64,000 bases of DNA. Source: Psammoneis japonica (Eukaryota). The stretch's first letter is position 1, and each line of letters opens with the position of its first letter. Below, one piece after another: positions 1 through 58,700 of this stretch. The notes beneath the pieces are model-generated. The model searched no databases. It was not told the origin of the DNA and saw only the letters and a program-made list of their open reading frames with translations. The stretch covers positions 124,001 through 188,000 of the forward strand of contig QPGO01000010.1 in assembly GCA_008632985.1 (NCBI GenBank), in the 5' to 3' direction. The translations under genes were made by a program, and so were the position numbers.

Positions 1-394
1 ACACGCTCCAACTGCCTGGACCAGTGCCAGCAGCTGTGCAGGTTTCCACTGCCACCAGTGCCAGCAGCAAAAATGCTCTGACCATCACAGGTGCCAGCAG
101 CAGATGAAAAAGCTCCAAATGCCTTGATTGCTGGCAGTGCACACGGCCCAATGCCTTGGCCAGTGCCAGCAGCTGCACAGGTTCTCACCACCACCAGCAG
201 CTCAAAACAACAGATGAGCAGTTGCAATTTCTGACACACTGACAAAAATGGGAAAACAGTGTGCCTTGCTTGTCAATCAAGCACTCTCCAAGGCCAGCTG
301 TCAACCAAAATGGGGGAATCTGCATGCCTTGGCTGTTGGGAACAGCGTGGGCACATCTGCGCCATTTCGTGAGAGCTGTGGGGACATCATTGCC

Positions 395-678
395 TTCAGT
401 CTTTCTGGATCTGGACATGAAACTGGAGAAGACAGATGCACCATCAGCAAGGGCATCAAAAACCAATGAACCTCTTTTTGCACATGCCTTGTTTGAAGTG
501 TGTCATTTGTGGCAAGCATCATTTCAAGTGTGAGCTGTGGGAACAAGCACTGCCTGCAGTCTTTCTGGTGGGATCTGGGCACAAAAATTGGAGAAGACAG
601 GTGAATTGTCAGCGCACATTAAAAACCAATGAACCTCTTTTTGTGCATGCCTTGTTTGAAGAGTGTCACTTGTGGCAA
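395..678 (+). repeat. Degenerate tandem direct repeat, period about 160 bp
   Basis: cagtctttctgg...ggagaagacag...aaaaaccaatgaacctctttttg..catgccttgtttgaag.gtgtca.ttgtggcaa occurs at about 395-515 and 553-678. Confidence 0.8.
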
Positions 679-1299
679 CTCACAATGATTCTGGGTGCAA
701 AACTCTGACACACGCAAATGTGCCAACACTGCAAAAAAGTTTTTGTGATGTGCGTGCACACAACAACATGCTGGCTTGGCATTCTGGATGATGATTCTTT
801 GATGTGGCAGATTTGTGACAGCACACTCATTGTCATGAAACTCAAGCAATGCCCCAATCAAAACCCATCTTGACCAACCAGAAGGACAGCAGGGGGGTCT
901 TGCCACATGTTGAGCTGCTGTCATGGCCAATGAGGCAAAGTCTTTCACCACCATGGCAGGTTGTTAATTTGCAGATTTGCAACCACACATGGAATCCATG
1001 TGAATCACAGCAGCGCATGCTTTGGCTTTTCAACATTTTGGGAGAGGGTGTGCTGTTGTGAAGTGTGCAGAAAATTGTGCATGTAAAAAATGCACTGAAA
1101 ATGCAGCAGACCGACAGGCCATGCAAATCTGGGAAGCATGAAGAAAAATTTAAAATGGAGGGTGGGTCACGTGCGTGCAAAAAGTGGGCTGCACACGTGC
1201 AAACACACGATGTGAGTTGAGGAGGACCAAAGTGGAAACCAAGTTGAATTTGATGACTGTCAAAAGGAAACCAAACCATGCATCACAAAACACAGATGT

Positions 1300-4200
1300 C
1301 CTCTGTTCTAATTGATGAAATCAAACATTGCACGTGCATTTGATTGAAGCTTGTGCAAGAAAAGCCAGTGAGACATCAGATGAAACACAAAAAAATCTGC
1401 AATTTGTTGAGCACTGTTGCCGGCAGTTTTCAAATTTTGCTTGTCAACAATTTTGCCAATGCACATTAAAAAAATTTACAAAGGAAAGTGGAAACCACTT
1501 TGTTGCAGCCTCTGATGTCAACACACCCATGAATGAGGGCAAAGCAGCAGAGTGCAGCATCACAGCAGACAGCTCACTGTGGTTGATGGCAGCAGCATGA
1601 GCCTGGTTCATGGCAGAAGGCAGATGTTGGAAAAAGGTCTTGCCCAACTCAGAGAGAGGAAGAAAGTGAGGGCAACAGTGCAAGGGGTAAAAAGTGAGCA
1701 CCAGTGTGTGGAGAAATTGCTCAGGAAGTGAAGCTTTTGCCAATGTCATGTCAGCTCCACAAATGGAACCTTCGCTGAATCCCATGCGTGCTTGTCTGTG
1801 GAATGAAAACAGGAGCAGCACCAAAGTTCAAACCCACATGATGGGTTCCCCATTGGTTTGCCCATTGGTGGGACTCAATGGCATCTTAGACTGCATTCCA
1901 AGGATGCACTCCTCATGAGAAAAGGCACCATTTGAGACAGGTGTGGCAAAATGGGCCAGAGTGGTCCCCACAACAAGCGGACCCAATTGGGGTTTAGAAC
2001 ATGCCCACGCAAGTCCTTCAACCCATGCACTCCTGCTTTTGTGTGGCAACTTTTGGTCCAGCCAAGGATGTCCTCTCCTTGCTGGCTTGAAGTCTTGGCC
2101 ATGACATTTGCTTCTCAGACATGAAGGAAAGGTGTGCTGTGACATTGACAAAAGAAGAGTCCTGTTGGACCTGCTGTGCTCTTCACAAATTTTCAGTTTT
2201 GTGCGTGCCTTCAGAAAATGATGCATGAGTGAACTGAATGAGGGAAGATGCCAAAAGCACTCATGAAAGAATGCAAGCTGAAAGGTGCCAAGAGTGCAAT
2301 CAACCATGACCCAAATCTTGTCAGCACTTTAAGTCTTGGTTGGTGCAGTCAGCCAATCAACTTTCTGCAGGGACCCATGCAAAGAGGTGATGACCAAGTC
2401 ATTGGCCTTTGCAGACATGTTGAAAACATCTCTCAATGTGTTGGGTTCGTTGGGTCTGTTGGTCATTTTGGGCCATTTGGGCAGCTGCCTGGTTGTGCTT
2501 GGGCAGCTTCCAAAGCCTGTTGCAATGGATCAGGACAATGACACAGCTGTGGTCAAACCGCAGGGATTGGACAGATGCAGCGTTGGCTTGCTCCATGTTG
2601 CGTGAGTCGTCAAACAAGGTTTGCTCAAGAAAATCAACCGGGGATTCAGAGGATGCAGCGTGGAGATTTTCTTCATCCACAAAGTGTGCTGATTTGCATG
2701 TGCCAGTGGTGCAGCAAGAGGATTGGTGTGGACCAGCAGGAACAGGGTTGTCCGGGGTTGGTGAACTCAAAATGGAAAAAAATCTTTGGTGTCTGGTGGA
2801 TCTGCATCAAGTTCATGAGGAGTGGCATGGAGTTGACATTGAGGAAGTCTTTGACAGTTCCTGTGTGCTCATCTGCAGGTGTCTTGTCACAGTTGGTGAG
2901 TCCGGGTGTGTCATTGGAGATGTTCCAGATGGGTGGGGCACCTGAGAATAGAGTGTGATTACACACAAGTGAAGATTCAAAGACATTGTGTGCAACAATC
3001 AGATTTTTTGTGCCAGTTTCATTGGGAACATGCACCAAACAGCCAGCTCAGTTGGGTTGACATGAACACCATGGGAGTTGTGTTGGAGCTGTTGTTTGGC
3101 AGTGGTGTTGGACAGCCAGTTTCTGGATTGAGGGGTTGTTGCCTGTTGAAAGCAGTGGGACAGCCAAATGTGCAGAAGTGGTCAATCCTTGCAAGCTTGT
3201 TGAAGGCATGCTGGAAGTGTGGTGCAGCAAGAGAGCCATCAGCCATGTGGATGCCCTTGGTCAGTGGCACATTCAGGATTGCCATGGCATGGATGAACAG
3301 AGGTGCATGAATTGTCTGTTGTTGTTTGCACACATGCATTTGCACACTCTGTGCATGTGCACATTTGTGCATGGATCACACGCAAGGAAGCACATGCCCA
3401 GATGGCAAGACAGTTTGTGCACCTCTGTGGACAAAGGCAGAAGTGGGCCAAGAGGCAGGCATTCACAAGCAGGCAGCAAATGTTGTCAGATGCAACATGC
3501 CACATTCATTCACAAACTCCATTCATTTCTTGGTGACAAAGAGAGGCGCGGGAATTTTGACCTTGTTTCCGTTGTGTGCACCAAAGGAAATGAACTTGTT
3601 AGAGAGGAAGCACTGTGCAGAATTGGCGCAGATGAAGTTGACATCTTTCACATGGCCAACAGCTTGCACTTTGGCTGTCCAGGACTTGAAAGCAACAATG
3701 ATTGCCAGTGGTGGGGCTCTCAAGGCCACGGGCACCACAGTGGTGTCCCTTGTGTGTGGCCATGAAAAGATGACATGGAAAAGACGTTCCAGGGGTGAGA
3801 GCAAGGGAGTCACCTGGGATTTGGATTTACACCCATGAACACACGTGAAAAAGCATGCTCCATTTCAGTTGGGTCACACTTGACACAATTTTGTTTCTGT
3901 GACATGGTGATGTGTGCACTGTGCAAGTGGTCGTCAGTCCCAGGGGCAACATGACAATCACGCCAAACTTTGCCAGCGGCTCCAGCCAAAAAAGAACTCC
4001 AAGAAGAGCGACAACCAAGTTGATGACCTGCAAGGTCAAAGTCAATGGTGGTGGTCTTTGGGTGGGATGAAGCTGGTCAGGTGGTTGAGTGTCATTCTCC
4101 ACTTGATCTGTTGCATTGGAAACTGGAAACAAGAGGTTGAGCCAGCGCATCATGGCAAGATTGCTGCTGGGAAGCTGAAGGTGTGACCATCACCGAAGTC

Positions 4201-6700
4201 AAGTTTGATGATGTTTGTTGTGACCATGACATGGAACAGTTCATTGTTGGTGAACACATGGACCAAGAACAAGTTGTGATTGAGGCCAGGGAGATGCAGT
4301 GCATTTGGTCAAGGACAAGGTTGATGGGTGGCCTTGGTCATCTTGAAATTGCAAGGTGTGGACATGGGTGCCATCTGCAATCACAATGGGGGCATGACAA
4401 CCAGCACTGTTGTCAAGAGAATCATGGTGGACAAAGTGAGAGGAGGTGCCAGAGTCAACAAACCAGCTGCAAATGTTGGAGAGGTCAGTGTCACATGGCA
4501 ACTGCTGGGGTTGGTGTGCAGATTGGGGTCATTGGCCATTCAGGCAACTTCTTGACCAGGGGAGTTGATGACTGGGTTGGAAAAGAGAACAGCAAGGGGA
4601 TGAAGTTCTCTTGAGGAAGTCAACACTGACCCCTGAGACAACTGACAAGTTGTCACAATCTGAAGTGGTTGGCAACAGTTCCTCCAAAGGTGTGGTTGTG
4701 CATGCATCATGCAAATCCAATGGTGGAGTTGGTGTCAACTTTTTGGGAAGAGCAAGGATTTTGCTTGGAGGACCACAAGAGGTGAGAGGGCACTGTGGCA
4801 AGTGTGGTCTTGTGGTGACAAAGAGAAGACAGAGCAGTGGATGAGTCCATGCTGGAGTCACAAGAACAGAGAATCAAAAGTGGCAGACCAGTCAAGGCCA
4901 AGTTGCAGGGCAAGTCATCGCTGAATGAGTCAGAACCAGAATCCATTCAGTGCACATGTGGACAGAGTGGTGGTGAGGATCCACAAGTTGAGACAGACAG
5001 GCAACAATCTTCCTCTGCATCAGTGCAGGTGGCACAAAAAATGATTTGGTCATCATGTGGTTGGGCCGTGTTGTGGCAAGTCCAAGTGGCTGCATTTTGT
5101 GCTGAGTGGCAGCAGGAGCAGTTTGTGTTGGAGTGGACTTGAGCCCAAGGCAACAAGAACAGAGGTGTCCTTTCTTCTTGCAATGGCAGCAAGTGACTTC
5201 ACTCAAGTCATGGGCAGGCTTGGCAGTGGATTGGATTTGGGGCTGGACTTGGGTGTTCCATTTTTCAATTCATGAAGATGGGAACAAAACAGTTGGTGGC
5301 ATTGTGGTTCCTCTTGCCACAGCAGCTGCAAATTTCAGAAGTGATGGTGTTGTGTGTTTGTTGTTGTTGCCATTGTTTGTTGCCTGGAGGGTTCCTTGCC
5401 ATTTCAATGTGGTTGTTGTTCATGCACAAGCCGGTGCCACCAGACAAATGGTTGCAGTGTTGGGCAACATGATGTTGCTCGTCAATGTTGTAGAATGTTT
5501 GCCACATGTCCTTGAAGAGGGGAGCAATGGCAGAAGGCAGGCAAGTGGCAGCTCAAAATTCAGATTTGAGTTGCTTGGCAGCAGCATCACATCACAGATG
5601 ACCACCCGTTTGGCTGAGAAAGTGGGTGCTTTCCTTGGCATTGGTTGTGAGAGGCAGGCCCACATTTTTTTGCAGTTCCAAAACTTGTGCTTGCATTGCT
5701 TGATGAAGTTGTCAGAAGATTTGTTGGAGTTGCGGAAGTCCTGGAGGTGGTCACAAGTGCAGCAGTTGTGTTCCTGGGAGAGAGAAGCACGGTGCTGCTG
5801 CAGCTCTTTGAGTGCAAGGTTGCCAGATTTTGGGCCAAGATTGGAGATGTCCAACTTGCAAGCACCATCCGTGCATGTCCACAGCAAAGCAAGAAGAGCC
5901 TTGTTAGTTTCTGCCAGAAGGGAGCAGAGAGGGTCAGAGGGGAAGCCTTCAAGACAGTTGTCGAGCTCAGGAAAAGAGGAAAAAGAGTTTGTGCAGCTCA
6001 TTCAGGAAGGTGTTGAAGCTCTGATGGCGGGTGCATGGGTTCTGATGGTGTTTCAGAACTCCAAGCTTTGGCCATGTGGAATGCAGGCTTCATGAGAGAA
6101 TTTGCCAAAGATTCTGAGGTGCACTCTGTTGCGCTGGCAGTGCAATGAAGAGGCTCAGAAAGGATGGCATCATTGTCAGAGGAAGAAGCATCACAAAAAG
6201 TTTTGTTGGCAGACAATTGAAGTGGGAGTTCCAGGGGGAGTGCCTCAGCCTGTTGCATCATGTTCTGGAAACAGTCAAGGGCAAGGAGTGCACTGGCTTG
6301 ACAAGCTAGATGGCAATGGAGAAGGGACTCAAAGGACAACTTGGCAGCATTGATCATGCAGTCAAGGTCATCCTTGCCTTTGAAAAATGGAGCAAGTGTC
6401 TGTTGAACATTGGAGAGCACATCGGTGGTGACAATGCAAACTTGTGAATTGAGTGCACTGTTGACTGTGATGTCAGCAATGGCAGGGGTTGACGTCTTCA
6501 GAGGAAGTGGCTGTGTGGTTGGTGGCAAAGATGTTTTCCTGGTCCATGCACTGTGGGGTTGCAAGAGCTTTGTCAAGAGCTCTGTCCATCTCATGGTGTG
6601 CAGAGTGCACGTGCCATGAGGTTCTCTGGACATGTTGCTGGAGTCCCATTGGCGGCATTGACATTAGAAAGAGCTGGTGTGGCAGCTTCACAAACAGTCA
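1300..6700 (-). mobile_element. Degenerate Ty1/Copia-type LTR retrotransposon (gag-PR-IN-RT order); ends approximate
   Basis: On the minus strand: two gag zinc knuckles (CSCCGKRNHNATNC near 5310; VTCCHCKKKGHLCSCC near 5180), aspartic protease WFVDSGTSSH near 4450, integrase-like segment ending in HFCTFGCP near 3170, and RT-like GVHGLKD (cf. LYGLK) near 2020. Many stops and frameshifts. No LTR pair recognised. Confidence 0.7.
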
Positions 6701-8217
6701 AGAGAGGTGGGAATTCTTCAGGAGATCCAAGTGGAGCTGTCCCATTGGCCTTGGATCCATGGGCAGCAGGAGGAGAATGAGCAGGAGAGGTCAGGGGAGA
6801 GCAAGGTGCCCCCCTTTTGGCTGAAGCACTCTCATTGTCAGAAGCAACAGTGTTGACAGCAACACAAATGGATTGAGATGTCAAATGATCACGGGCGGGG
6901 TGGGTGTCCAGATGAATTGCATGTCCTCTTGGGCTTGCTCTTGAAGCGACAATCAACATCTTGACACTGAAATGGTTTCCAACAAGACATGCCATGGCAA
7001 TGACAACAGGTTCATGGGGCTTTGCATTCCTGATTGGGCATCATCTTTTTGTGCTTCTTTGGGTTGAGATTGGGGCAACAATTGTCAGGTCATTCACCTG
7101 AAGTGTGAGCAGAGTTGGCATGGTTGGCTGGTGCAGAAGGTTTCTGGGTGCAATTGTGCAGAGTTTCCACATCTGTGTCAAGAAGAATGTCCAAAGATTT
7201 GTTGACATCCTGCAAGTGGTTGCAGATTGCACAATCACAATCAAGATGCTTGGGGTCAGAAAAGTCAAAATCTCTTTGGTCAGCTTCATCCAACAAGTGG
7301 CCAAGATGAGCACTTGAGTGCTGCAAGACATGAAGGTTGGAGTTGAGTTTGGATGTCTCCATCTGGAGACTGGCAACTTGGTGCTGAGCTTGAGCAACAC
7401 ACAGTTTGAGAGCAAAACGCACATTGTCCTTGAATTGTTGGCAACAGAGTTCCTCAGGAGACAGCAGAGCAGGGGCTGGGGCATGCTGAGTGGCCGCAAT
7501 TGAGCTGCGGATGGCACACAGGCTTGGCGTGCCAAAGACCATGGACAGAGGAGCAAATGTCATGCTCAAAATCAGTGTCATCCTTGAAGGCATCAAAAGC
7601 ACAACAACAAGCACATTGCAAGCAATGAGCAGAGACCTTGTTGTGTCCAGGAGCAGGCTGGGATGGCTTGGCAGATGGCTTGGAAAGCAGTGCAGACGTG
7701 TGCTTGATGCATCGGATCGGGGTGCAGTGTGGTGCTCCCTGGGTCACGCATCAGCTGCATCAACAAGAACTTGTGGAGTGCAACACAAGTTGTGATGCTG
7801 GGCCTTGGGGACATTGTCAACAGTGCCTCCATGTGGACCACAAAAGACGCAATTTGGGTGTGCATGTGACAACACACCTTGCACAAGAAGAAGCAGCGTG
7901 AGATGCATGATGAGCATTTGACGCAAAAGAAGCACTCTCCTCAGACCAAACCAGAAGCATTGCAGCCATGACAGAAATTGAGAAAGAACTGGGCCTCGCC
8001 TGAAAGTGACTTGGGGTGATCAAGTCCGTGCACGAACAGGAGAGAGTGAGCTAAAAAGAGTGACAGCTTGCACCACCAAAGCATGATCCAGACATTGTGA
8101 CAGACTCTGCGCTAGTCTCAGAATCGAAGCCAAGATGGAAATCGAAGGATGATTCCAACATGCCAACTAAACGCTGCGGAATTGCGGATGATTTCCATCA
8201 CAAACTGACCAGAAGAC

Positions 8218-9966
8218 ATGGTCTTCAGTCATGACGTTCAAATTTCAAAAGGGAATTTGGAATCCCTGACATCAAGAAGCAACAAAAAAGGCCACCCAAC
8301 CGACCACCAATCTGAGCCTGTGACCCAAACGCAACGCAAAGATGATGATTCTCTCTTCCACATCTGCGAAATCAGAAAGACGCACAGAAAAAATGAAGAT
8401 CAAAGAGTTGCTCAAAAAACCATGAGAGTCCGAAGACCAGCAGCACGTGACAGGATGAAAGAGGTGGTGAGATGTTGGTTTCTTGTCTCGCTGCCCCTCT
8501 TGGGTGTCATGTGCGCCGTCGCGTGGTTGAGCTTTCAGCAGAATGGACCGATCGGGCCTGCGTCAATGAGCTACACTGGAACTAATGAATGCGAAAACAC
8601 TTGCGACTGGAGTAAATCCAATGTCCCAGAACTTCACCGAAAGCTCTTGCCGGCCCAGCCATTCAGTGTGCCACCAACCATTTTGCCAGTGCTGTCCATG
8701 CTCCGTGGCATTAGTCCCAAAAACAGACACAACCATCGTGCGCTGATGGCCATGCTGCTCTTTTCTGTTGGCATCCCAATGCATTTCACCGCACACTTCC
8801 AGCTTCTCGAACCCCAAAATGTGTCGACATGGTGTGGAGCATGGGGCTCAATGATTTTTGTCACTCAAGTGAGCATGCATCATCTGATCTTTGTTCGCAG
8901 CCTTCCTCACTCGGAAAATTCCAATGAGTCGCTCCTCATCTTGCCATTTGGCCTTGGTTTTGCCATTCACTTGTTGGGACACTTGCATTTCGGCGGCGGG
9001 GCCTTTGTGTTTGTGTGGACCCAATCCGTGGCGTTGCACATTATCTTGATGTACCCTTGGCTTCGCCTGGTGGACCGTTGGCTTGAGAAGCCACACTCAA
9101 GAGGCACGCTAATTAATGCAGTTTTGGGGTTCGCTTGGGATGCATTTTACCTTCCATTTTGCAGCAGACGCGAGTCTTTCTTTCTGCCAGGAGGCTTCCA
9201 AGTGCCACTCCATGCAATTGGTGATTGCTTTCACTCCGCAGCTTGGATCATGAGCTGTGCTCCGCTTGTGAATGACATTCTTACAAAAATTTCACACAAA
9301 CATGAGCACTGCACAGAGCAGAAGAAGAAGCAATTGCAGCAGTTGTTGGACTCACAGTTTGGGGAAATTTTGAACAGAACTAGTGTAAATGCACCCTCCA
9401 GCCATTTGGATGGATTCTTTCAAACCATGTGGGTGTCGCCACCAGTGGTTGTTCCCCGTGTAAATCTGGGAACACCTCCCACAGTGCAGGGGTGGTTCTC
9501 TCAGGTGCATGTGACAGAAGCCATCAGCGAGATCTATCTTCATGAGATGCTCCGGCCATGTGATCAAGAAATTTCAGTGGAAATCTTTTTGGCCGACTGG
9601 TCCACCTCCAGATGCAGCACGCAACTTTCTGCCTTCGCCCCTCACAAAACTCTGGGACACTGCTCTTCCCCTGCTGGGACTTTGAAGAAACAGCAAGAAG
9701 TCTTGAAAGCCAAGAGTGACCGGAAAGCATTGGTCATGCACTCTGCCGGTGTTCCACTCGATCGCACTGAATCATGGAGACATTGCCATGCGTGCCATTT
9801 ACCTTCCATGACCTTCGTCCCAGCCAACTCTCACTTTGCCTCCAAAGTGTTGTTGCAGATCCAGCAACGCGCCATGCGAGTGATTTTCGCTAAATGTGGG
9901 TGCAATCGGAATGACAAGCGCCTCATTCTGTACGGCCCTCAATCTCTCAGTGGGGGCGGATTTTGA
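8218..9966 (+). pseudogene. Multi-pass membrane protein of unknown function, mutated copy; lost stop codons make it read through into TE sequence
   Basis: Several hydrophobic helices. Aligns with 15231-16352 with many Y->H/C changes. TAG TAG of copy 2 is CAG CAG here (9337-9342). Confidence 0.65.
9400..9575 (-). mobile_element. RT fragment resembling DIRS/Ngaro-type retrotransposons
   Basis: HLMKIDLADGFCH (K-x-D-L-x-D-G-F-Y motif), followed in another frame by FPDLHGEQPLVATP. Confidence 0.55.
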
Positions 9967-12400
9967 TCCTTGGACGTTGAACAGGGCATGATTGCGCAAC
10001 TGCAACAGTTCCTTCGGCACTCTTGTGGGTTCAACACATGCTGTCAGAAGATCAACCACATGCCGCAGCTCACATTGCCATTGCTTGGCATCAGCTGCAG
10101 CTGGGTGTGGGAATCAGCTTCCTAAAAGATGTCAGCACCAGACATCCACACAGTGAGTCCCACTGGCTTGCATCTGTCCACTTGTTCCTGCATCGTGTGG
10201 GTGGATGCATTGCTGTGTCCCAGGACGGGGTGTCACCTCTGCAATGTGACAATGATCAGCTCCCAATGGACATTGCCTTGGAGTTGTTGGAATTTTTGTC
10301 CCAAGAAATTTGGTGGATCAACCATTGTTGATTGCACCTTCAAGTGCTGCTCACGGTCTCAGACATTGCCTTGGCGGATGGCTGCAACCTGGATGAGTCC
10401 AAAGTCTGTGGTGACGACCCCACTTTCTCCTTGGCAGCATCAGCACCTTGTTTGACAATGTTGAACAGACCAAACCTTGTCTCAAGGCATGGGGTCCCTG
10501 AGTGTGCCTGTGTGAAATGTTGTGTGATGATGGATCCACCAGACTGCAAGCTCTTTTGGGAGATTGGCCAGTGCCTCCTTCCAACAAGATGCAGATTCAA
10601 GCCTCTGCCTGTTGGTCTCCAGAAGAATCACATTTTTGTGTGAGATCTCCATCTGGTTTTAATGTGTTTCTGGCCAAAGACACAGTCGCAACATCATCAC
10701 ATCAAATTGAAACAGTTCCTTCTCCAGCTGACTCATCTTTCCCAGCAGAAATCAACTCACTCAATGAAGGACGGTGGCAATGCATCCCTCACAGATCGCA
10801 GCTGACAGTTGACACACATCCTCTGCCACCCAAGCTCTTCAAAGACCGGCTGCAAGGCCTGCCTTCTTGGGAGTCAGCCCTCTTCTCAGAGATGGAATTC
10901 CACATGTCCCTCTGCAAATTAGCGGATTGCTTTGTTTCAAATTGCCTGATGTCAGGAAGTGACGGGTCTGTGATCCTCCAGAATGACGACCTTTGGCAGA
11001 CTGTGCAGGACTGGCATTTGGCAGAACACCTTCCTCTTGCCAAGCTGAAGCATGTGGCTTTCTCTCCTTGACACGATTTGTTTTCTGCCTGCAGGAGTTT
11101 TGCAAATTGTCCTCATGCAAGGGAGCTGACAACTGGTGCAACAACAAGGCTCTCATTCGAGTTCTGTCCCGTCTCACAGACAGCCGTCCCTCCATTGATC
11201 CCTCCCCTTGTGTCCATCCCGAACTTGATTTTCACCTTTGGAAGCATGTTGCCAATGTCTTGTCATCAGATTGGGGCATTGTGAACAAAATTTGTCAGAC
11301 CTTCACCACTGTCAAAGCCGTTCTTAATCAGTCTTCCCCCAGTCAGGTTCCCACACTTGCTTGAGTGGGTAAAAGGACATCAAGATTGACATCATCCGGT
11401 GGAAACTCCATCTCACAATGTGCAAATCAACATGCGGACTGACAAGCTGGCAGGCTGCTTTCATGGTCAACGTGAGTTTGACATGACAACGGTGTCCCCC
11501 CACTGCCAGTCTTGCCTCCACCTTCAAGATGGGCCCATTGGGGAAAGAAATGAATGGAACGAATCTGTCACTGACAAGATGGATTGGAAGGTGCATGCAA
11601 TGCTGGTTCATTGATGCTCCACATGTGTCCACTGTCAAATTGATCCATGAACTGCCACCTGCAGCCAAACAAGATTGCTCATCGATGCGATCCAGTCAGA
11701 CCGCATCATTGCCTGTCTTGCAAACATTCCATGGAAGATTGCAATCACATCCTGCAGTGTCCAGCCAATGAACCTTCTTGGCAATGCAAACTCTTGCAGG
11801 GTCTGCAAAAACACTGCAATGATGTTGATGCAATGCCTCCTCTTTGGGATCTGTTCTTGTCCTCTGTTGAAGCATGGTTTGAAGGTGAGATGACATGTGA
11901 TGATGACATTCACCCCTTGTTGCAACCTCCATGGAGAGCCCAGTCAGACATTGGATGGTGACAACTGTTCAATGGCCGTTGTTCCACCCTCTAGAACACT
12001 TTTCAAGAAATGCACCTCTGCAACATGGGACTGTTGGAAAAGTGTAGAAAGGAGAGCCGCCCACCTCCAGTCTGGGCTGTGCAGACAGGAACCTGCATTT
12101 GGAAATCTTGGTGGGAGTTGTGGGAGGAGCACAATCAAGAGGTCCACAGTCATGACGTGGACACTGGGAAGTCATCTCTGTGACAACAAGTGGAGGCCAA
12201 GCTCACGGCAATGTGCAACAAAAGACAGGATCATTTGGCTAAAGATGGGGACATGCTGATGGATTCAGTTGAAGAGCACCAATCTCACTCCACTTTGCAG
12301 ATGATTGGCTGGATCGCAATGGCAAAACCACAACTGAAAGACAGCCTCAAGAAAGCAAAGTGCTCCATGCGGCACTTGCTCTGCAGCCAGTTGTTTTGGC
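9600..12400 (+). mobile_element. 5'-truncated, degenerate non-LTR (LINE-like) retrotransposon with RT C-terminus, RNase H and CCHC finger
   Basis: HKTLG...G (RT thumb), LYGPQSLSGGGF..EQG, RNase H motifs SDGS, SSCQAEACG (cf. SSYRAE), CNN, EWVKGHQD (near 11364) and QINMRTDKLA, then CLSCKHSMEDCNHILQC zinc finger. Confidence 0.75.
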
Positions 12401-12539
12401 GGGTTGGTGTCACCTTCAGATGATGCCCATTCTGGCTGATTTGCACAAGCTTCTGCCGCACCGCAAGGTGCACTTGACGTGTGGGTCAGCTGGTGCCGGC
12501 CTGGCTGGCAAAGGAGTGATGGCGCTCAAAAGATTGACC

Positions 12540-12897
12540 TGGTTTTTTTAATCTTCATGAGACACACCTTGAAAGTTTGCCCAAGTGGCATTGATTTGAC
12601 TGAAGCAGTGGGCTGTGTGGCTGAATTTTCACCCCATAAAATGTTCAGTCCATCCACTGTGGGCCTTGGTTGGTGACCGTGCTGTGACACAACACCAATG
12701 GAGCCAAGTCACAGTCCTGGTGTGTCTTGTGCAAGCACTTTTTTTGCATGGTGGCACAGCTGTCCAGAACCCTTTTTCAACCACATCTGCCATGTCTTTG
12801 TGCAAGAACTTGATGCACTTGCAAGTGGATTCATGTGTTCCCCTGGTGACACTGGCATCCAGCTCAGCACGTGTCCACAGTGCATCAGTGATGGTGT
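12540..12897 (-). mobile_element. DIRS-like RT N-terminal fragment, cut at the duplication junction
   Basis: LWTRAELDASVTRGTHEST..KFLHKDMADVVEKGFW resembles the region upstream of DIRS-type RTs (W....RG.H.S / FL..EM......GFW). Confidence 0.5.
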
Positions 12898-16352: not shown

Positions 16353-16612
16353 TAGTTGTTAGACTCACAGTTTAGGGAAATTTTGAACAGAACTAGCACA
16401 AATGCACCCTCCAGCCATTTGGATGGATTCTTTCAAACCATGTGGGTGTCGCCACCAGTGGTTGTTCCCCGTGTAAATCTGGGAACACCTCCCACAGTGC
16501 AGGGGTGGTTCTCTCAGGTGTATGTGACAGAAGCCATCAGCGAGATCTATCTTCATGAGATGCTCCGGCCACACAATCAAGAAATTTCAGTGGAAATCTT
16601 TTTGGCCGACCG

Positions 16613-19414: not shown

Positions 19415-19554
19415 GGGTTGGTGTCACCTTCGGATGACGCCCATTCTGGCTGATTTGCACAAGCTTCTGCCACACCGCAAGGTGCACTTGACGTGTGGGT
19501 CAGCTGGTGCTGGCCTGGCTGGCAAAGGAGTGATGGCGCTCAAAAGATTGACCT

Positions 19555-40200: not shown

Positions 40201-40214
40201 AATCTCCCACGTAA

Positions 40215-40983: not shown

Positions 40984-41016
<33 letters not shown>

Positions 41017-43759: not shown

Positions 43760-44159
43760 CGGACCTTGACGATTCATCACAACCTCCTGAATCTTGTCCA
43801 TTCCAAGTCAACTGCGTCGTCAACTAGGGGATGAAGGCAGCCGTTAAATACAAATCCAAGCTCACTACCTGCTCCAATGTGTACCCGGATCATATCCAAA
43901 GAAGAAGGATAGTCTTGTTTTCCCGAGACCGATTATCAATGACAGAGAGTCTGCACTTCCAGAATTTGACATTTTGTAGACGCTGTTTCCTTAGAACATT
44001 TGAACATCATTCTAGTTTACTTCGTTTCTCCTTTCTGTGTCTCCACTCCTTTCTTTTGCAATAACATAGCCACCGTCGGAAACCTTCACGACAACAATTT
44101 AGCCAAAAGGTGCTACTTCCCTTTTTTGCCACTTGTTTTTGGATCGTCGAGTTTAAGGT

Positions 44160-47100: not shown

Positions 47101-50100
47101 GCTGTTCAGTTTGCCACTTTCATTGATCTTGCTGCTGTGCTTGCCTCAAACCTTTTGTTGTTCCTCTTTTCTTCTTGCTGCCATGCTGGCTTCATTTTTC
47201 CGGCAAGAGCCAGCTCTCTTTTGTGTGCTTTGTTTCTTGTTGTTGATGATTGTGGAGTGCATGTGGGTCTCTGTGGCAGGGTGCAAGCCTTGGCTCATGA
47301 TGCACTCATTTCCATGAGACTGCACAAATGATGATGATGGTGCATTGGCTGTTGTCACACCCAAACAAATGCTTGTCCATTGAACAATCAGAGCTGGGGG
47401 AGGTTGAGAACAAGTTGTGGGTGCTGTCAGCAAATTGGACATCATCTGAATGAGAGAGAGAGAGAGAGAGAGAGAGATGACAACTTGACTTGACTTGAAT
47501 CAATTTCATCAACCTGTCTGTCCTTCTTTGGATCTTTTTAACACAACACAATGCCCACCGCACGTCAACAACAACAGCCGGCCGCTGATGAAGCCACCGC
47601 AAAAGTCTTGTTCTCCTGACTTCAGCCAACGTTGTTGTGCCTGCTGTTTGCTAAAATGGTTGGACAAACATCCAATTAAGCAGCTCTGCCTTGGCCACTT
47701 GCATTGCTGTTGTTTGTCACATTTGAAAGAAAATTGCCAATTTTGATCGTTCGTTTGAGAGAGAGAGAGAGATGCCACTTCATTCATTCGCCCACCGCGT
47801 GACAACAACAACAGCCAGCCACTGATGTGAAGCCACCACGAAAGTCTCATTCTCCTGACTTTGGCCAACATTGTTGTGCCTGTTGTTTGCTGGGACAGTT
47901 GGGTGAACATGGCTTCACCAATTTTGATCATTTGAGAGAGAGAGAGAGAGAGATGCCAATTTTGATCATTCAAGAGAGAGAGAGAGAGAGAGATGCCACT
48001 TCACTCATTTGTTTGTTTGAGAGATGAGAGAGAGAGAGAGAAAGAGAGAGATCCCAGCCTTTCATCTTCCACCACAAGTGGAAGCCTGCCATGTGGCTTG
48101 GGAATGTGGGTCAACAACAAGCTCCAACAAGTTGCTCATTGCCATTGGCCACACTTCAACAGCAGTCTACCTTGTTGACCACAAACAAGAGCTCATCCAA
48201 AATTGCAAGTGGTGCTGCCCAGCAGCCCAACTGTCTCCAAGCCTCTTGTGCTGCTCAGCTTGTCCAGCAATGAGGCCTGCCACTTTGGCCCCCCTCTGTT
48301 CCCGAGCAAAGCCACCAAGACCTGCCTTTGGAGGCTCTCATCAAGGCCCTCTTCTGAACAATCATCTCATGAAAAACACAACAGTCATGGGTGCACCACC
48401 CACCCCACCATGTGCAATGCTGTCCATGTAGAAGCAGGTCTGGGGGGAGCTTGGCTGCAACCTCAAAGACCACAAAAACACAGCTTCATTGACACAATGT
48501 TTTTGGCACTCCTTTTTGCTTGGGCCACCACCTGGTGGTGCCACCCAATGCTGCCTGCTGGAAAGCATTTGCACTCTCCAGACTGTCAAGAATGACTTTG
48601 AAATCACCTGGGTGGCCAGAACCCAACATGTGTCACACTGTGAATTTCACGGACCCACAGTGTTGCTCCATGGCCAACACATTGTCCACACCCCCAGCAC
48701 CCTCTGCAAAAAGCTGTGCCCCATGCACTCTGCCAGCACCACAGAGGTGCCCAAACTAAAAATGAAGCATGTGGGTGTCGCTCTCCCCAGCATCAAATGC
48801 AGTGGGGCCCCAAATGCAATGAGCCCAAAACCCACATGCATTAAAAATAAAAGACAGACCCAAATTGTTAAATTGCCCCCCCAGGCAAATTGTTCCCCCC
48901 TGTGATGCACTCTGCTCCCCCACCTGAAGCACTGTCTGGGCATGCACTTTTGGTTCAAAACCTCTGCTCTGACTTCAACAATGCAAAAGTGAAGATGAGA
49001 CCATTGCACCTTTGTCTCCAAGCCCATGGCTGCAAGCCCAGCAAGCTGCAGCCAGGCTCCAAAAAGTGCGGCAGCACCCACAACCTCATTTTTGGTGAGC
49101 CAGGTGCATGCCCAGATCAGACATGCCCCCATCCAACCCACTGTTCTTCATGTGCTGCATCACCCAAATGAAACCCATCAGCACCTTGCGTGTTTTTCAG
49201 AATCTTTTGGAAGGGAGCCATGGCCCACCCACCCTGCTTGTGGTGTGCACAACCCCACCACCACCACCACCACCACCACACCACCTTTGTGAGACCATGC
49301 CCAACAACAAATGGGGTGCACTGCTGCTTGCTGCAACTGACCTCACAATCTTGGGAACACCTGCTGTCCCATCCCAAAAACCTTTGCATCTTCACAGCCC
49401 CCATTTTTGTCCCACAGGATTGCAAGCAGGGAGGCAGAGCCACCTCAAAAAGCCAGTTGTTTGAATCAACCTTGGTTTGTCTGTCTCACAGGAGCCCACC
49501 ACAGCTTGGATCTTTTTTTGACACAGCAGTCTCAACCACAGGCATCACAACAACAGCAGCCAGCCACTGATGAAGGCACTGCAAAAGCCTTGCTCCTGAT
49601 TTTCTGCACAGCTGTTGGACGAATGTCTGACTGGCAGCTGCCACCTTGGCCACTTTCACTTTGGTCGCAGCCAAATTTTTTGTGCCTGTCATGATTGGTG
49701 CTCCTGAACAGCCCAACAAATGTCTGAAGTGTGGCCACAACACTGGCTGCTCTGTTTTTTTGTTTGTTGTGTTTGTCAGTGGTTCCCTGCCTGACTGACA
49801 TGGAGAGAGTGTGGTGGAGAGCTTGAGAGACATCGGGACACAAGCCAACACCATGTCAGCCCTGCGACTCAACTCATCTGTCCCCCCCCCCCCCCCACAC
49901 ACACATCGGATTGTTTCAACATGACAATCTCAGCCACATTGACAACAGCAGCTGGCAAATGACAGAGCCACCACAAAAGTCTTGCTCCCAACTTTGGCCA
50001 ATTTTGTTCTTCTGTCCACCATTTGCTGGATGGCTTGGACGAATGTCCGACTGGCCAGCGGCTCAGCCTTGGCTCTGCTCGTCTCCTTTGTTGTTTGTTG

Positions 50101-50380
50101 ACCGCATTTGATGGGAAACTGGCTGTGCCAATTGTGCCATTCATTTGAAAGAGAGGAAAAGAGAACAGTGCATGGACTTGAGCCAATCAGCTGCAGCACT
50201 CTTTTGTGCTGCCTCTGGCCATCTCCTGCAGCACACAGCAGCCTCCAGCAAGAGCCGAGTGTGTGTGTCAACAACAGCTGTGTCTGTGTGTCTTGGACAA
50301 ACACCCAAATGGCAGCTGCCTCAGCTGCGCTTTCCTGCTTTTCGACAGTTGCTTTTGATGGTCTTTCGTGCTCTCATTCG
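44160..50380. other. TpA/CpG-depleted domain C
   Basis: TA and CG nearly absent until about 50385 (actacagtgccgcactagatagggcctatgtaccggtac). Several (GA)n tracts at 47450-48050. Confidence 0.9.
46100..46800 (+). mobile_element. Penelope-like RT remnant
   Basis: FVIAQCDKNLGP, TKIH, and LLTSDAEACCSNIP (cf. D...LYTNIP, with Y->C). Confidence 0.55.
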
Positions 50381-55084: not shown

Positions 55085-55588
55085 TCATTGACAACATGGG
55101 CAAGAGGGCTGACGAAGACCTCCATTCGCAAACGTCATGTTGGCTAAAATGTCGAGTTGCTCCTCTTGAGTGCTCTTGTTTTCGACATTATTACTGCTTT
55201 GAAACTGTCGTCTCATCAATCCTTTTGGCGAATCAAAATCATGGTTATTTTTATGCTCAGTCAAGACGTTGTCTTTGCCTGTTCCTGTTCCCTTCAAGAA
55301 AGTCTCGTTGCGGCTAGGCGACGCATGAGAATGCCTTGGTTCCCATGGAAATGGTGAAAGCGTCATTAAATCCACTTTAACTTTGGTCACATCGCATTGT
55401 GCGTTAATGTCTCTGGCCTTAATCGTTTCACTTCTTGCGCAATCCTCCTCGTTCACCTTGGGTGGAGGAGGTGACTCTTCGTTGTCTCTAAAGTTTTGCG
55501 TTGCAGCCGCGACTGCGTGCGAATAAAAGACAATCGAGGCAATAAAAATAACCACACTTCCAAGAAATGAGCCTTCCATCATTATCAA
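55085..55588 (-). CDS. Hypothetical protein fragment with an N-terminal hydrophobic segment
   Basis: 167-codon ORF with a signal/TM-like N-terminus. No firm motif. Confidence 0.3.
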   Translation of the reverse strand: MIMMEGSFLGSVVIFIASIVFYSHAVAAATQNFRDNEESPPPPKVNEEDCARSETIKARDINAQCDVTKVKVDLMTLSPFPWEPRHSHASPSRNETFLKGTGTGKDNVLTEHKNNHDFDSPKGLMRRQFQSSNNVENKSTQEEQLDILANMTFANGGLRQPSCPCCQ

Positions 55589-55789
55589 AAGAGCAATGAG
55601 CTACAACAAAATGTGATTGCTGTTTAGCCGGTGATCATAATATTGCGCTGCACTTTTTGATCTGTGCGAATGTTTTCCGGAGCGACCCACTACGGTAAGG
55701 TTTATACGGTATCTTGAATGCGTGGATGCATGCGCGTTATTTCACCTCTCTCAATCGTCCGACTGTGGGGTAGAGAGGCTAAACAAGAA

Positions 55790-58700
55790 CCCTGCAGCGA
55801 GAGGCAATGACATTGAACATGTCACAAATCAACCGAACAGCAACAGTGGAATCCTTTGACCGCCATTGACACAAGCAACAACTGCAACATCTCAACAACA
55901 CTGCTGCAAACATGATCAACTTCCTTTCCTTGGGGAGAGGAGGGGGTGAGGCCACACGCTGGCAGAGAAAGGGCGGGCTTGTCCAATCGAAACAACATCA
56001 GTGTCAGCCACATCATCAACACTGCCATCAATGACAATCCAGCAGCAACATCACATGGAAGGATGAAGAGCTGAGCTGGGCTGTGAATGAGGAGGAGGGA
56101 AAAAAGGGAGAAGAGAAAGCCTTTTTCTGAAAATGTGTGAGTTGACAACCCCAAGCACTGCCAGCAGAGAAAAAGCAAAAGAGCTGTGCAGCTTCATTGT
56201 GGAACCTTGAAAAGGTGAGGGGACAATCAGCAAGTGCTCCACAGAGCCTTGCACGTGTTTTGTGCCAGAGCCATCTCGTGAACTGGGCACATGTTTTTTG
56301 AGCTCAGGCAGAGGGTCTGTGACCAAGCAGCACGAGGTGTCTGCAAAGAAATTGTTGCATGCAAAAGCAGGTGGAACAGTGGAAATTGGACCCTGTTGTC
56401 CAAGAATTCTTTCCATCAGATGGTGAAGGCAAGACCTTCAGTTGGTTGTTGTTTTGTCAGCTTTGTTTCACAAGCACAGTTTTTTTGCTCATGTCAAATC
56501 ATTTTGTGCAGCAGCAGAGAAAAGCAAAAGGGCTGTGCAGCTTCATTGTGGAACCTTGCAAAGGTGAGGGAGAACAATCAGCAAGTGCTCCACAGAGCCT
56601 TGCGTGTGTTTTTTGCCACAGAGCGCCATCTCTTGTGAACTGGGCACATGTTTTTTGGAGCTCAGGCAGAGGGTCTGTGACCAAGCAGCATGAGGTGCCT
56701 GCAAAGAAAATTGTTGCATGCAAAAGCAGGTGGAACAGTGGAAATTTGACGCTGTCATCCAAGAATTCTTTCCATCAGATGACAAAGGCAAGACCTTCAG
56801 TTGTTTGTTGTTTTGTCAGCTTTGTTTCATCAGCACAATTTTTGCTCACGTCCCGTCATTTTGTGCAGCAGCACAGGCCCTGAGAAGTCCAACTTCTGCT
56901 GAAAAGGAGACCATGACAACCACCTTGACCACAAATTCAGGTGCAACATTGTTTTGTTTGGTGTGTTTGTTCCATCATTTGCAGTTGTTTGACGAGCATT
57001 TTTTCCTGGAATGATGTCATCGCGATGCAAATTGCTCACAATTTGACCCCTCTTCCATTTGTTCTTGCAGCAGGCAGCTCCAACCATGCCCACCACCACT
57101 GGGACAATGATGGCCACAATGTGAGGAGGTGTGTAAGTGTTCCATTTGTAATTTTTTGCGACTTTTGCATTTTTGACCATGGCACGGCAGCTTGACACAG
57201 GAACACAGCACTTTCCACTGTCACACTGGAGTTGGATTGTTTTGGCAGATTGTGACCTTGACTTTCATTTGGATCTAACTTGAACAGCACCTGTGTCATT
57301 CTCAACATCTTCCCTGGCTGTTCTGGGGCCGACTCTTTGTGTGGTGGGAAGCTCGGTGACTGCCATGCTCAGTCTTAGATGGAACAGGACTGTCAATGGG
57401 CAGGGCAGATGCAAGAATCACAAGAGGGATTTGTCTGGTCTTTCAGATGGAAATGACACTGTTCTCAACACGATGAGAACTCTCTGCTGGCTGCCGGTGC
57501 AGGAGGTGCTTGATCTTGAAAAAAGATGGAAACCTTTCGCTTCTCAGGACTGCGAGAATCAAGTGGCAAAAAGAAAATGGCGTGGGTGAAAATGTGGAGA
57601 GCTCCAGCTTCTACATTTTGAACACAAAGCCTCACAGTGAGACAACATTGTTGACACCTGATTGTCTTTGAATTCTAAACCTGACAACTCGGCTGCAGAT
57701 TCACAAGGAATTGGCTGGCGCACTGGCAAATGGTTGGCTTCATCATTGCTGGTTTTGGTTGTCTCCATTCTGTCTTTTTCTGTTCTGGGTCTTGTCGACT
57801 GCAACTGCATCTTCATTCTCTGGGAAAAGCCTTGAACATTCCCCAATGAAATCTGTGCCCATCTTCTCTTTGTGCCTGTTGTAGAGATCTCTTGTTGCCA
57901 CAACAAACCTGTTGTGAAGTGCATCCACTTGCTGATTGGTCGGATTGTCAATCTGCTGCACTTCAACAGGCGATCAAATTGCAAGGACAAGCTTGTTTCC
58001 ATTGGGAATGAATCCAAATGGGACACCAAATCACCCAGTCCAAAAGACAAAAGACACGTGAGCCCGATGCGAAAACCGCGCAGCCCACGAACGAGGACCA
58101 AGGGTTCAATCACACGTTTGATCGAAGCCAAAAAAGCAGCAAGGGACAAGATCCACTCCTGTCTGCAAAGCAACTTTGCAAAAGCCTCACCATCGCTCCA
58201 GTGCAATTTGTTCACGGTCAATGCCGTAAAACATGCAACATGCCCACAATCCCATCGTGCTGCAGCATCAAGACAGAGTGTGGATGTGGCAGAGCCAACG
58301 TCTTTTTCAATTCGGTCTTGGACACCAGCACAAGTCCCCCCCATCATGTCATGAGTCGTTGCAACATTGGAACTTGAAAAACAATGTCGGCTCCTGAAAA
58401 CAACATGGTCACACCACAATGTTCTTGAAAGTGCCTTCTAGCCAAGAAGACTCCGATGCCAAAAGCGAGCGCGGAAAGCAGCGCAGAAGACAGCTCCTGT
58501 GCTGTTCTCGAAATGGCCGTCAACAACTGTTTCACAATTGTTGCAACGTTCAAGACCCCTGCCATTGTCACAAAACGCATTGAATGCAGACCAGTGTCCA
58601 TGCGGCCCAGGTCGAAGAGGAACGAGGTGCTCTGCAAGCATGCCACCGAGGATCACATGGCAAAACACAAAGCCTCGAATCGCTCCAACCAGGACGAGCA
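55790..58700. other. TpA/CpG-depleted domain D
   Basis: TA nearly absent from about 55790. It returns at about 58730 (aaatatataaaccgcacatagtgttaag). Confidence 0.85.
56163..56873 (+). repeat. Tandem direct repeat, 2 x about 350 bp
   Basis: agcagagaaaa(a)gcaaaag.gctgtgcagcttcattgtggaacc... starts at 56163 and 56513. Confidence 0.9.

What the first reader, a model, noticed from the sequence alone, without database searches (positions are those of the whole stretch)
1..58700. Domain-restricted TpA->TpG/CpA hypermutation of repeats: a candidate reverse-RIP genome-defence system
Seen: four blocks (about 1-20900, 40215-42300, 44160-50380, 55790-58700) lack both TpA and CpG and are full of TpG/CpA. 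By eye there are 0 TpA in 1-600 and 11 in 1-2340, while the intervening genes are normal. Conserved TE Tyr residues read as Cys or His (GVHGLK for LYGLK, ACCSNIP for xYxNIP, DGFCH for DGFY), which is what TAY->TGY/CAY gives. Known: CpG loss is explained by 5mC deamination, but 5mC deamination and fungal RIP (CpA->TpA) cannot remove TpA; RIP creates it. Inference: a second, targeted mutagenic activity converts T:A to C:G at TpA in repeat chromatin. Candidates are a DNA adenine deaminase (A->I) or a thymine modification such as 5hmU/5fU that mispairs with G. I do not know of such a system being described, and no candidate enzyme gene is visible in this window.
Basis: partly seen in the sequence, partly recalled or inferred. 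Interest (0 to 1): 0.95.

Follow-up and report, generated by a model that had tools for sequence, protein, structure and literature searches.

The report
Repeat blocks stripped of TpA, CpG
In this diatom-like genome stretch, old repeats, a recent 7-kb duplication and a dead gene copy have had almost every TA and CG step rewritten to TG or CA, which points to an undescribed activity that targets TA in silenced DNA, unless it is a sequencing artefact of modified bases.

Summary
In 22.6 kb of blocks, TpA o/e is 0.04 and CpG 0.18, while TpG and CpA are about 1.8. Intervening genes are normal (0.60 and 0.99). The total of YpR steps is unchanged, so TA and CG were converted to TG/CA.

The direction is shown directly. 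Two copies of a 7,014-bp tandem duplication differ at 110 columns, and 86 of these lie at such sites. A 1.9-kb insert kept about normal TA density until the duplication, then lost about 71% (copy A) and 30% (copy B) of its TAs. Background divergence is about 0.15%. A DGAT2-like pseudogene shows Tyr->Cys/His and Arg->stop.

Conversion follows a per-strand context rule (5'-TAY/RTA favoured, TTAA resistant). The TG-or-CA outcome is variable for a given tetranucleotide, yet fully concordant in the older, shared parts of the duplication. That fits inherited mutations.

My best reading (about 0.58) is an in-situ, repeat-associated T:A->C:G mutator at TpA, plus slower CpG decay. The main rival (about 0.27) is nanopore miscalling of modified TpA/CpG.

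No candidate enzyme gene lies in the window.

The parts
1..8100 (.). Fully depleted block (left part). From 5884 on it belongs to tandem copy A.
   Evidence: TA 20, CG 76, TG 979, CA 900. No Pfam domain in six frames.
5884..12898 (+). Tandem duplication, copy A (7,015 nt).
   Evidence: 98.4% identical to 12898-19912. Of the 110 differing columns, 86 lie at TA/CG<->TG/CA or TG<->CA sites.
12898..19912 (+). Tandem duplication, copy B.
8133..10033 (+). 'Insert' in copy A: the segment converted after the duplication. It has lost about 71% of its TAs and holds an orphan ORF at 8218-9963.
   Evidence: A lost 27 TAs that B keeps, and there are 9 TG<->CA swaps. Only 6 CGs were lost. The ORF has no homologue.
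15147..17047 (+). The same insert in copy B, the least converted version (TA loss about 30%). It holds the orphan ORF 15231-16349, which ends at TAG.
   Evidence: TA o/e 0.34-0.36 and CG 0.56-0.76.
16901..20900 (.). Fully depleted right part of the first block. A sharp edge to normal genes lies at about 20900.
40215..42300 (.). Depleted block. Positions 40219-41598 are an old copy of the same repeat family as 46859-48352.
44160..50380 (.). Depleted block. It holds the second family copy (46859-48352) and GA-rich simple repeats.
55790..58700 (.). Depleted block. It includes a 350-nt tandem repeat (56162-56873) and, at its right end, the DGAT2-like pseudogene.
57812..58743 (-). DGAT2-like pseudogene. 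It reads in three frames (two frameshifts). It has in-frame TGA where homologues have Arg, and Cys/His where they have Tyr. The TA-free zone ends at its 5' end.
   Evidence: Pfam DAGAT 5e-17. tblastn with P0001 and P0002. TA/CG profile.

Best explanation
These are real, inherited mutations made in place on chromosomal DNA. Repeated or duplicated and silenced DNA of this diatom-like alga is hit by two context-specific transition processes.

(1) A fast one converts T:A to C:G at TpA. It acts independently on either strand, so each TA ends as TG or CA. It has a trinucleotide preference: the edited A is followed by T or C rather than G, and least by A. This is the same as saying the edited T is preceded by A > G > C >> T.

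(2) A slower one converts CpG to TpG/CpA, with TCG most prone. This is most simply deamination of 5-methylcytosine in methylated repeats.

Shown here: the direction of change, its timing after a duplication, its two-strand nature, the context rule, and the sharp limits.

Inferred: process (1) is enzymatic, either adenine deamination or thymine oxidation at TpA. It is aimed at repeats, by homology or by chromatin state. It works as a RIP-like genome defence.
For: - Composition. TA and CG losses equal TG/CA gains, and the YpR total is constant.
- Direction. In the 1.9-kb insert, copy B keeps 27 TAs that are TG or CA in copy A. The reverse holds once. The DGAT2-like copy has Tyr->Cys/His and Arg->TGA relative to two homologues.
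- History signal. The flanks of the duplication hold about 380 excess TG/CA sites (my arithmetic). They show 0 TG<->CA swaps between copies. The insert has 9 swaps, about half of the roughly 18 doubly converted sites I infer. So the flanks were converted before the duplication and the insert after it.
- TA density before conversion. Back-calculated TA in the insert at duplication is about 63 per 1901 nt, or 33/kb. That is close to the 39-41/kb of normal stretches.
- Rates since duplication. TA loss is about 71% and 30% per site. CG loss is 14-20% in the flanks and 3-8% in the insert. Other changes are about 0.15% per copy.
- Kinetics. TA survival by tetranucleotide fits a product of two per-strand factors: T 0.77, C 0.30, G 0.12, A 0.04 (one search counts, my arithmetic). 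The same factors predict which of TG or CA predominates in each context (for example G..A is 0.78 CA observed against about 0.82 predicted).
- Independent conversion of family copies. The two old family copies show 11 TG<->CA swaps in about 460 aligned nt. So the family ancestor had TA/CG there.
- Public reads. Contigs of run X1 hold 0.94 of 1061 sampled 31-mers of 40001-50000, of which 79% lies in blocks.
- Normal genes look intact, for example an LHC/FCP gene in one frame.
Against: - X1's platform is unknown and it may be the assembly's own source. The 31-mer match is therefore not independent proof.
- Untrained base modifications are known to give consensus errors in nanopore-only assemblies (PMC10687267, passages read).
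- No natural enzyme that turns T:A into C:G in DNA at TpA is known to me, and none is encoded in the window.
- In the window, the homologous copies of the blocks are limited to the tandem pair and one diverged family pair. 'Repeat-directed' therefore rests on little.
- The codon-position test for selection in copy B was not significant: [11, 8, 10] against [108, 175, 137].
- The expected counts assume the blocks once had the composition of the neighbouring genes.
- The context model mispredicts about 5 of the 29 individual A/B events (my reading).
Confidence: 0.58

Rival explanations
1. Sequencing artefact on modified DNA. The true sequence has normal TA and CG. In silenced repeats both strands carry base modifications at TpA (for example 5hmU, base-J-like or 6mA) and at CpG (5mC or an oxidised form). 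A nanopore basecaller reads these as the transition partner, so plus-strand reads say TG and minus-strand reads say CA. The consensus then keeps one of the two.
For: - Modification-mediated consensus errors at untrained motifs are documented (PMC10687267, passages; bioRxiv 10.64898/2026.01.14.699587, listing only).
- The pattern is palindromic, two-stranded, domain-limited and nearly complete, as a symmetric mark would give.
- 5hmU in a dinoflagellate prefers TA and TC and is tied to transposon silencing (PMC11572971, Discussion passage).
- The reads could not be checked.
- The sizes of runs X1-X3 (141, 30 and 1 million letters) would fit small nanopore runs.
Against: - For one tetranucleotide context the TG/CA outcome is variable (fractions 0.2-0.8). 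Yet it is identical at all of about 380 converted flank sites of the two duplicate copies, and discordant at 9 sites of the insert. An artefact would need to be deterministic in the flanks and random in the insert.
- Survival and direction follow one competing-risk rule.
- 5mCpG was in basecaller training sets by 2019 (recalled). An 82% CpG miscall rate would therefore need a second unknown mark.
- Copies A and B differ by only 2 indels in 7 kb.
- X1's de Bruijn contigs hold 94% of the words. That is hard to reach with shallow noisy reads.
- The two frameshifted genes also carry in-frame stops, so they are true pseudogenes and not signs of an error-ridden assembly.
Confidence: 0.27
2. The mutations are real, but they are a passive by-product and not a dedicated system. 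Frequent T:G mismatches from 5mC deamination in methylated repeats recruit error-prone patch repair (polymerase-eta type, WA hotspot). That repair mutates nearby A:T pairs at TA.
For: - The two signatures occur together in the same blocks.
- Polymerase eta's WA->WG bias with a TA hotspot is established knowledge (recalled: Rogozin 2001; non-canonical mismatch repair, Pena-Diaz 2012).
Against: - AA is not depleted (o/e 1.21 against 1.16), although WA includes AA.
- In the insert, TA loss (71% and 30%) runs far ahead of CG loss (8% and 3%). At block edges the TA-free zone reaches further than the CG-poor zone. TA loss therefore does not follow CpG deamination.
- Near-total removal of TA (93%) exceeds CG removal (82%).
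Confidence: 0.1
3. Editing before integration. Retroelement RNA or cDNA was hyperedited (ADAR-like A-to-I) and the edited copies were then inserted.
For: - The block edges are sharp, as insertions would give.
- ADAR prefers a 5' U (recalled).
Against: - TG and CA gains are equal, and there is no strand coherence (lag-1 autocorrelation 0.003, n=5102).
- The changes arose after a tandem DNA duplication, at the same locus.
- No reverse transcriptase was found.
- A gene copy (DGAT2-like) and CpG are affected too.
Confidence: 0.03
4. Intrinsic composition. The blocks are foreign or selfish DNA that evolved to avoid TA and CG, for example to escape nucleases.
For: Both avoided steps are palindromic, as in restriction avoidance.
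Against: - There is no Tyr at all in the block ORFs (0.06%).
- A recognisable host-type gene shows Tyr->Cys/His and Arg->stop.
- Copy B still has the TAs that copy A lost.
Confidence: 0.02

Closest known systems
Fungal repeat-induced point mutation (RIP; Neurospora RID/DIM-2)
   Same: Dense transitions confined to repeated or duplicated DNA. Sharp limits. Both copies of a duplication are hit to different degrees. Genes caught in a duplication are killed by stop codons.
   Different: RIP changes C:G to T:A, mostly at CpA, and so creates TpA. Here T:A goes to C:G at TpA and TpA disappears. Base composition stays near 49% G+C instead of becoming AT-rich. No strand-coherent runs are seen. The host is a diatom-like alga and not a fungus. 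Premeiotic timing and homology dependence are untested.
CpG decay by 5-methylcytosine deamination, and the TpCpG hypermutation of basidiomycete repeats (Horns et al. 2012, PMC3318451; search listing only)
   Same: The CG branch: CpG is lost with reciprocal TpG/CpA gain, and TCG is the most prone context. TCGA survival is 6% against 47% for GCGC.
   Different: It explains nothing about TpA. The CpG rate since the duplication is roughly 100 times background. That is higher than I would expect for spontaneous decay (recalled 10-50 fold).
Dinoflagellate 5-hydroxymethyluracil made by TET/JBP enzymes on transposons (PMC11572971; passages read)
   Same: A thymine-directed activity linked to transposon silencing in an alga. 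The paper's Discussion cites earlier work on C. cohnii showing a preference for TA and TC.
   Different: That is an epigenetic mark, with no reported loss of TpA from the genome. Here the sequence itself lacks TA. No TET/JBP gene is in the window, and the modification is untested.
tRNA adenosine-34 deaminases TadA/ADAT2-3 (recalled, not tested)
   Same: Their natural target is A34 after the invariant U33 (U-A-C in tRNA-Arg). That matches the preferred 5'-T-A-Y-3' found here. Engineered TadA variants do deaminate A in DNA.
   Different: No natural TadA or ADAT is known to edit chromosomal DNA at adenine. No such gene was seen here. The same data fit thymine editing at 5'-R-T-A-3' equally well.
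APOBEC or ADAR editing of retroelements (for example PMC4866542; listing only)
   Same: Clustered transitions that disable mobile elements.
   Different: Those act on one strand of cDNA or RNA before integration. The changes here are on both strands and arose after a duplication.
Modification-mediated nanopore consensus errors (PMC10687267; passages read)
   Same: Recurrent substitutions at specific short motifs that consensus polishing cannot remove.
   Different: They were reported for bacterial 5-nt motifs at Q27-34 genome quality. They were not reported as 80-97% conversion of two dinucleotides in chromatin-like domains.

Membership tests
Fungal-type RIP | Acts on duplicated or repeated DNA and stops at the limits of the repeat. 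| tested here: inconclusive
   A tandem pair, one diverged family pair and a gene copy are affected, with sharp edges. Copy number in the genome cannot be checked, because no genome is held.
Fungal-type RIP | C:G to T:A transitions, mainly at CpA, which raise TpA. | tested here: not met
   TpA o/e falls to 0.04 and CpA/TpG rise to about 1.8. B-to-A changes are TA->TG/CA.
Fungal-type RIP | Needs a RID/DNMT4-type enzyme and occurs before meiosis. | not testable with these tools
   No DNMT is in the window. Diatom DNMT4s related to RID exist in 31 of 60 diatom species surveyed (PMC9998398, passages).
5mC-deamination CpG decay | CpG loss matched by TpG/CpA gain in methylated DNA. | tested here: inconclusive
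   The composition part is met. Methylation of these blocks cannot be tested.
RNA-level (ADAR-type) hyperediting of retroelements | A-to-G on the transcribed strand only, fixed before integration. | tested here: not met
   TG and CA gains are equal with no strand coherence. The changes post-date a DNA duplication.
Nanopore modification artefact | The differences vanish in amplified or short-read data. | not testable with these tools
Only a 31-mer share of 0.94 in run X1, of unknown platform, is known.
Nanopore modification artefact | The call is set by local sequence and signal, so identical sequence gives identical calls. | tested here: inconclusive
   About 380 flank sites are concordant, but 9 insert sites in identical local context are discordant. 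The outcome is variable for a given tetranucleotide.
TET/JBP thymine-modification system | A TET/JBP dioxygenase gene and 5hmU (or a derivative) at the sites. | not testable with these tools
   No such domain among the ORFs scanned in the window. The rest of the genome and the DNA chemistry are unavailable.

The most novel reading that the evidence does not exclude
A diatom lineage has a dedicated DNA editor that recognises newly duplicated or repeated DNA. It rewrites T:A to C:G at 5'-TAY-3'/5'-RTA-3' on either strand. The editor would be, for example, a TadA/ADAT-type adenine deaminase or a TET/JBP-type thymine oxidase recruited to chromatin. It erases Tyr codons within one or a few generations, and it acts ahead of and separately from CpG methylation. 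This would be a 'reverse RIP' genome defence with chemistry not known in any organism.
Probability: 0.3. Interest if true: 0.95.

Novelty: categorically new. Interest (0 to 1): 0.82.

Why it matters
If the mutations are real, this would be the first natural process I know of that directs A:T-to-G:C transitions at a defined DNA motif. It would also be the first RIP-like point-mutation defence outside fungi. It would give diatom genomics a simple marker (TpA o/e) for silenced DNA, and a natural source of DNA adenine- or thymine-editing enzymes.

If it is an artefact instead, it still implies a dense, symmetric, previously unreported base modification at TpA in diatom heterochromatin. It would also be a warning for nanopore-only algal assemblies.

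Either way the question becomes directly testable. There are defined loci, above all the two insert copies at 8133-10033 and 15147-17047, and a defined motif rule.

Tried and rejected
- No RNA holder was listed for 40001-50000.
- No whole genome is held.
- Earlier scan notes: nothing on this genome, nothing by sequence, and only unrelated phage notes by words.
- Transposon identity: Pfam on 98 block ORFs, on three ORFs of the partly depleted insert, and on six-frame read-throughs of all blocks gave no TE domain.
- Homologues of the orphan ORF 15231-16349: none by word-indexed search and none among 1.84 billion representatives.
- Ten window ORFs are not in the 15-billion-protein collection by exact look-up.
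- Orthologous locus of the D123-like gene in metagenome contigs: none.
- 72 Cu-ATPase loci held no look-alike block. This serves as a control only.
- Strand-coherent patches: none. A tetranucleotide test for coherent TATA->TGTG/CACA gave a mixed result and was dropped.
- Codon-position test for purifying selection on copy B: not significant.
- Frameshifts in the Cu-ATPase gene as a sign of a noisy assembly: rejected, because the gene also has in-frame stops and is a pseudogene.
- Rfam and tRNA scans found nothing.
- Literature: searches found no description of TA->TG/CA hypermutation of repeats. PMC7884421 was checked and is irrelevant.
- I did not use structure prediction, complex prediction or the protein atlas.


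Full report
**Observation**

The four blocks have TpA o/e 0.04-0.08 and CpG o/e 0.14-0.39. The four intervening stretches have 0.57-0.70 and 0.96-1.02.

I compared 22,603 nt of non-redundant, fully depleted sequence with 31,300 nt of normal sequence:

| Dinucleotide | Normal o/e | Block o/e |
|---|---|---|
| TA | 0.60 | 0.04 |
| CG | 0.99 | 0.18 |
| TG | 1.14 | 1.79 |
| CA | 1.09 | 1.83 |
| Sum of YpR | 3.82 | 3.84 |

The other twelve dinucleotides barely change. The blocks therefore look like ordinary local sequence in which about 93% of TA and 82% of CG were turned into TG or CA.

Edges are sharp to within 100-200 nt. None of 72 metagenome loci with Cu-ATPase relatives (638 kb) holds anything close. 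Block 1-20900 is not uniform: 8200-10000 and 15000-17000 are only partly depleted.

**What the sequence is**

Named protein hits are diatoms: Ditylum, Epithemia, Thalassiosira and Mayamaea at 46-53% identity. The best unnamed hits reach 59-60%. An intact chlorophyll a/b-binding (FCP-type) gene lies at 53988-54641. So this is nuclear DNA of a diatom or close relative.

The normal stretches carry sulfotransferase, D123-like, thioesterase, HA-domain and F-box ORFs. They also carry a Cu-ATPase pseudogene.

The blocks are repeats, but not recognisable transposons.
- A 7,014-bp tandem duplication (5884-12898 / 12898-19912) is 98.4% identical.
- Positions 40219-41598 are colinear with 46859-48352 at about 60-80% identity, with many transversions.
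- No RT, integrase, RNase H or transposase domain appears in 98 block ORFs, in three ORFs of the partly depleted insert, or in six-frame read-throughs.
- The only domain inside a block is a DGAT2-like gene copy on the minus strand (57812-58743).

**Direction and timing**

The tandem duplication works as a natural experiment. The two copies differ at 110 columns:
- 68 are single TA/CG<->TG/CA changes.
- 18 belong to 9 TG<->CA swaps.
- 24 are anything else, including 2 indels.

The 5.1-kb flanks were already TA-free. They hold about 380 excess TG/CA sites (my arithmetic) and show not one swap. They differ mainly at CG sites: copy A lost 17, copy B lost 12, and 55 are shared.

The 1.9-kb insert (8133-10033 / 15147-17047) behaves differently.
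- Copy B keeps 27 TAs that are TG or CA in copy A. The reverse occurs once.
- 17 TAs are shared, and 9 sites are TG in one copy and CA in the other.
- Counting an equal number of unseen same-direction double hits, the insert had about 63 TAs (33/kb) at the duplication. That is close to the 39-41/kb of normal stretches.
- It has since lost about 71% of them in A and about 30% in B.
- CG loss in the insert was only 6 and 2 of 76. Other substitutions are about 0.15-0.18% per copy.

TA conversion is thus hundreds of times faster than background. It occurred in place after a DNA duplication. It is unequal between the copies, and it is separate from CpG loss.

The DGAT2-like copy tells the same story against two homologues. 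It has Cys or His where they have Tyr, and Trp or TGA where they have Arg. The TA-free zone ends at the 5' end of the homology, while CpG loss fades 700 nt earlier.

The two old family copies carry 11 TG<->CA swaps in about 460 aligned nt. Their common ancestor therefore had TA/CG there.

**Signature**

TG and CA are gained equally, and neighbouring sites show no strand coherence (lag-1 autocorrelation 0.003, n=5102).

Survival of TA depends on its neighbours. The figures below are one search counts, scaled by me to the normal regions.

| Tetranucleotide | TA surviving |
|---|---|
| TTAA | 59% |
| CTAA | 21% |
| GTAA | 12% |
| CTAG | 9% |
| CTAC | 5% |
| ATAA | 3% |
| GTAC | 1.4% |
| ATAG | 1% |
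| ATAT | 0 |
| ATAC | 0 |

A product of two per-strand factors reproduces all ten classes. The factors depend on the base 5' of the T: T 0.77, C 0.30, G 0.12, A 0.04. The target is therefore 5'-R-T-A-3' if T is edited, or 5'-T-A-Y-3' if the opposite A is edited. The recent A/B events agree: conversion per opportunity is 0.41-0.46 with a 3' pyrimidine, against 0.11-0.17 with a 3' purine.

CG survival (19% overall) follows another rule: TCGA 6% and GCGC 47%.

The same factors predict which product predominates in each context. That is what competing per-strand events would give. All of this assumes the blocks once had the composition of their neighbours.

**Real or artefact?**

This is the crux, and I could not settle it.

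For reality:
- The TG/CA outcome is variable for a given tetranucleotide, yet inherited. It is identical at all flank sites of the two copies and independent in the insert.
- The kinetic rule is consistent.
- There are few indels between the copies.
- The normal genes are intact.
- The two frameshifted genes also have in-frame stops, so they are pseudogenes and not assembly noise.
- De Bruijn contigs of public run X1 hold 94% of sampled 31-mers of a stretch that is 79% block.

For an artefact:
- X1's platform is unknown, and it may be the assembly's own data.
- Its size and that of its sister runs would fit small nanopore runs.
- Untrained modifications are known to give uncorrectable consensus substitutions (PMC10687267, passages).
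- A symmetric mark at TpA and CpG would give exactly this palindromic, two-strand, domain-limited picture.
- A thymine mark with TA preference on transposons exists in dinoflagellates (PMC11572971, passage).

I put real mutation at about 0.7 in all. That splits into 0.58 for a directed process and 0.10 for a repair by-product. I put the artefact at about 0.27.

**Mechanism**

The shown steps are listed above. The rest is inference.
- The speed, the completeness and the trinucleotide rule point to an enzyme and not to polymerase error. AA is untouched, which argues against a WA-type polymerase-eta signature.
- Sequence alone cannot tell adenine deamination (A->I, read as G) from thymine oxidation (5hmU/5fU mispairing with G).
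- The T-A-Y preference recalls the U33-A34-C35 target of tRNA deaminases TadA/ADAT. That is recalled, not tested.
- The preserved insert inside an old converted block, hit only after it was duplicated, and the depletion ending at the limit of the DGAT2 homology both fit homology-triggered targeting as in RIP. A chromatin-domain rule with a gradient is not excluded: copy A lies deeper in the block than copy B.
- CpG loss is most simply 5mC deamination following methylation. Diatoms do carry RID-related DNMT4 genes of unknown function (PMC9998398, passages).
- No deaminase, TET/JBP or DNMT domain is present in the window.

**Novelty**

Seven full-text searches found no report of TA->TG/CA hypermutation of repeats in any organism. 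The library lacks most subscription journals, so this is not proof of absence.

Against RIP the chemistry is reversed. Against CpG decay, the TA branch is unexplained. Against ADAR and APOBEC editing, the changes are on both strands and post-date a duplication.

Under either leading reading, a TpA-directed DNA activity aimed at silenced repeats is implied.

Noticed in passing
window 31206-34466 (+): A Cu-transporting P-type ATPase pseudogene in normal-composition DNA. It has about nine frame changes with contiguous homology and in-frame stops, including Trp->stop in a conserved membrane segment. It shows no TA or CG depletion, so not every dead gene here is targeted.
   Followed up: partly
window 15231-16349 (+) and 8218-9963 (+): An orphan ORF (373 aa in copy B, read through to 582 aa in copy A because TAG became CAG). 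It has several hydrophobic stretches. It has no homologue in a word-indexed search or among 1.84 billion representatives, and no Pfam domain. I do not know what it is.
   Followed up: partly
window 22715-26530: Three neighbouring ORFs, two of them with sulfotransferase domains (Sulfotransfer_1 on the minus strand, Gal-3-O-sulfotransferase type on the plus strand). The minus-strand pair 22715-23890 / 23845-24801 overlaps by 46 nt in different frames.
   Followed up: no
window 47000-48600: GA/TC-rich simple repeats inside the depleted block, read as runs of ERER/SLSL in translation. The local repeats 47553-47652 / 47790-47891 lie here too.
   Followed up: no
window 56162-56873: A roughly 350-nt unit repeated in tandem (90% identity) inside a depleted block. 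Its differences include CG<->TG changes and two TG<->CA swaps.
   Followed up: partly
window 53988-54641 (+): An intact chlorophyll a/b-binding (FCP/LHC-type) gene in one frame, 1.1 kb from the edge of a depleted block.
   Followed up: no
window 34174-34347 (+): Within the normal-composition ATPase pseudogene, a conserved Tyr reads Cys (ALGYNL -> AMGCNL). This single TA->TG-type change lies outside the blocks. It may be chance.
   Followed up: no
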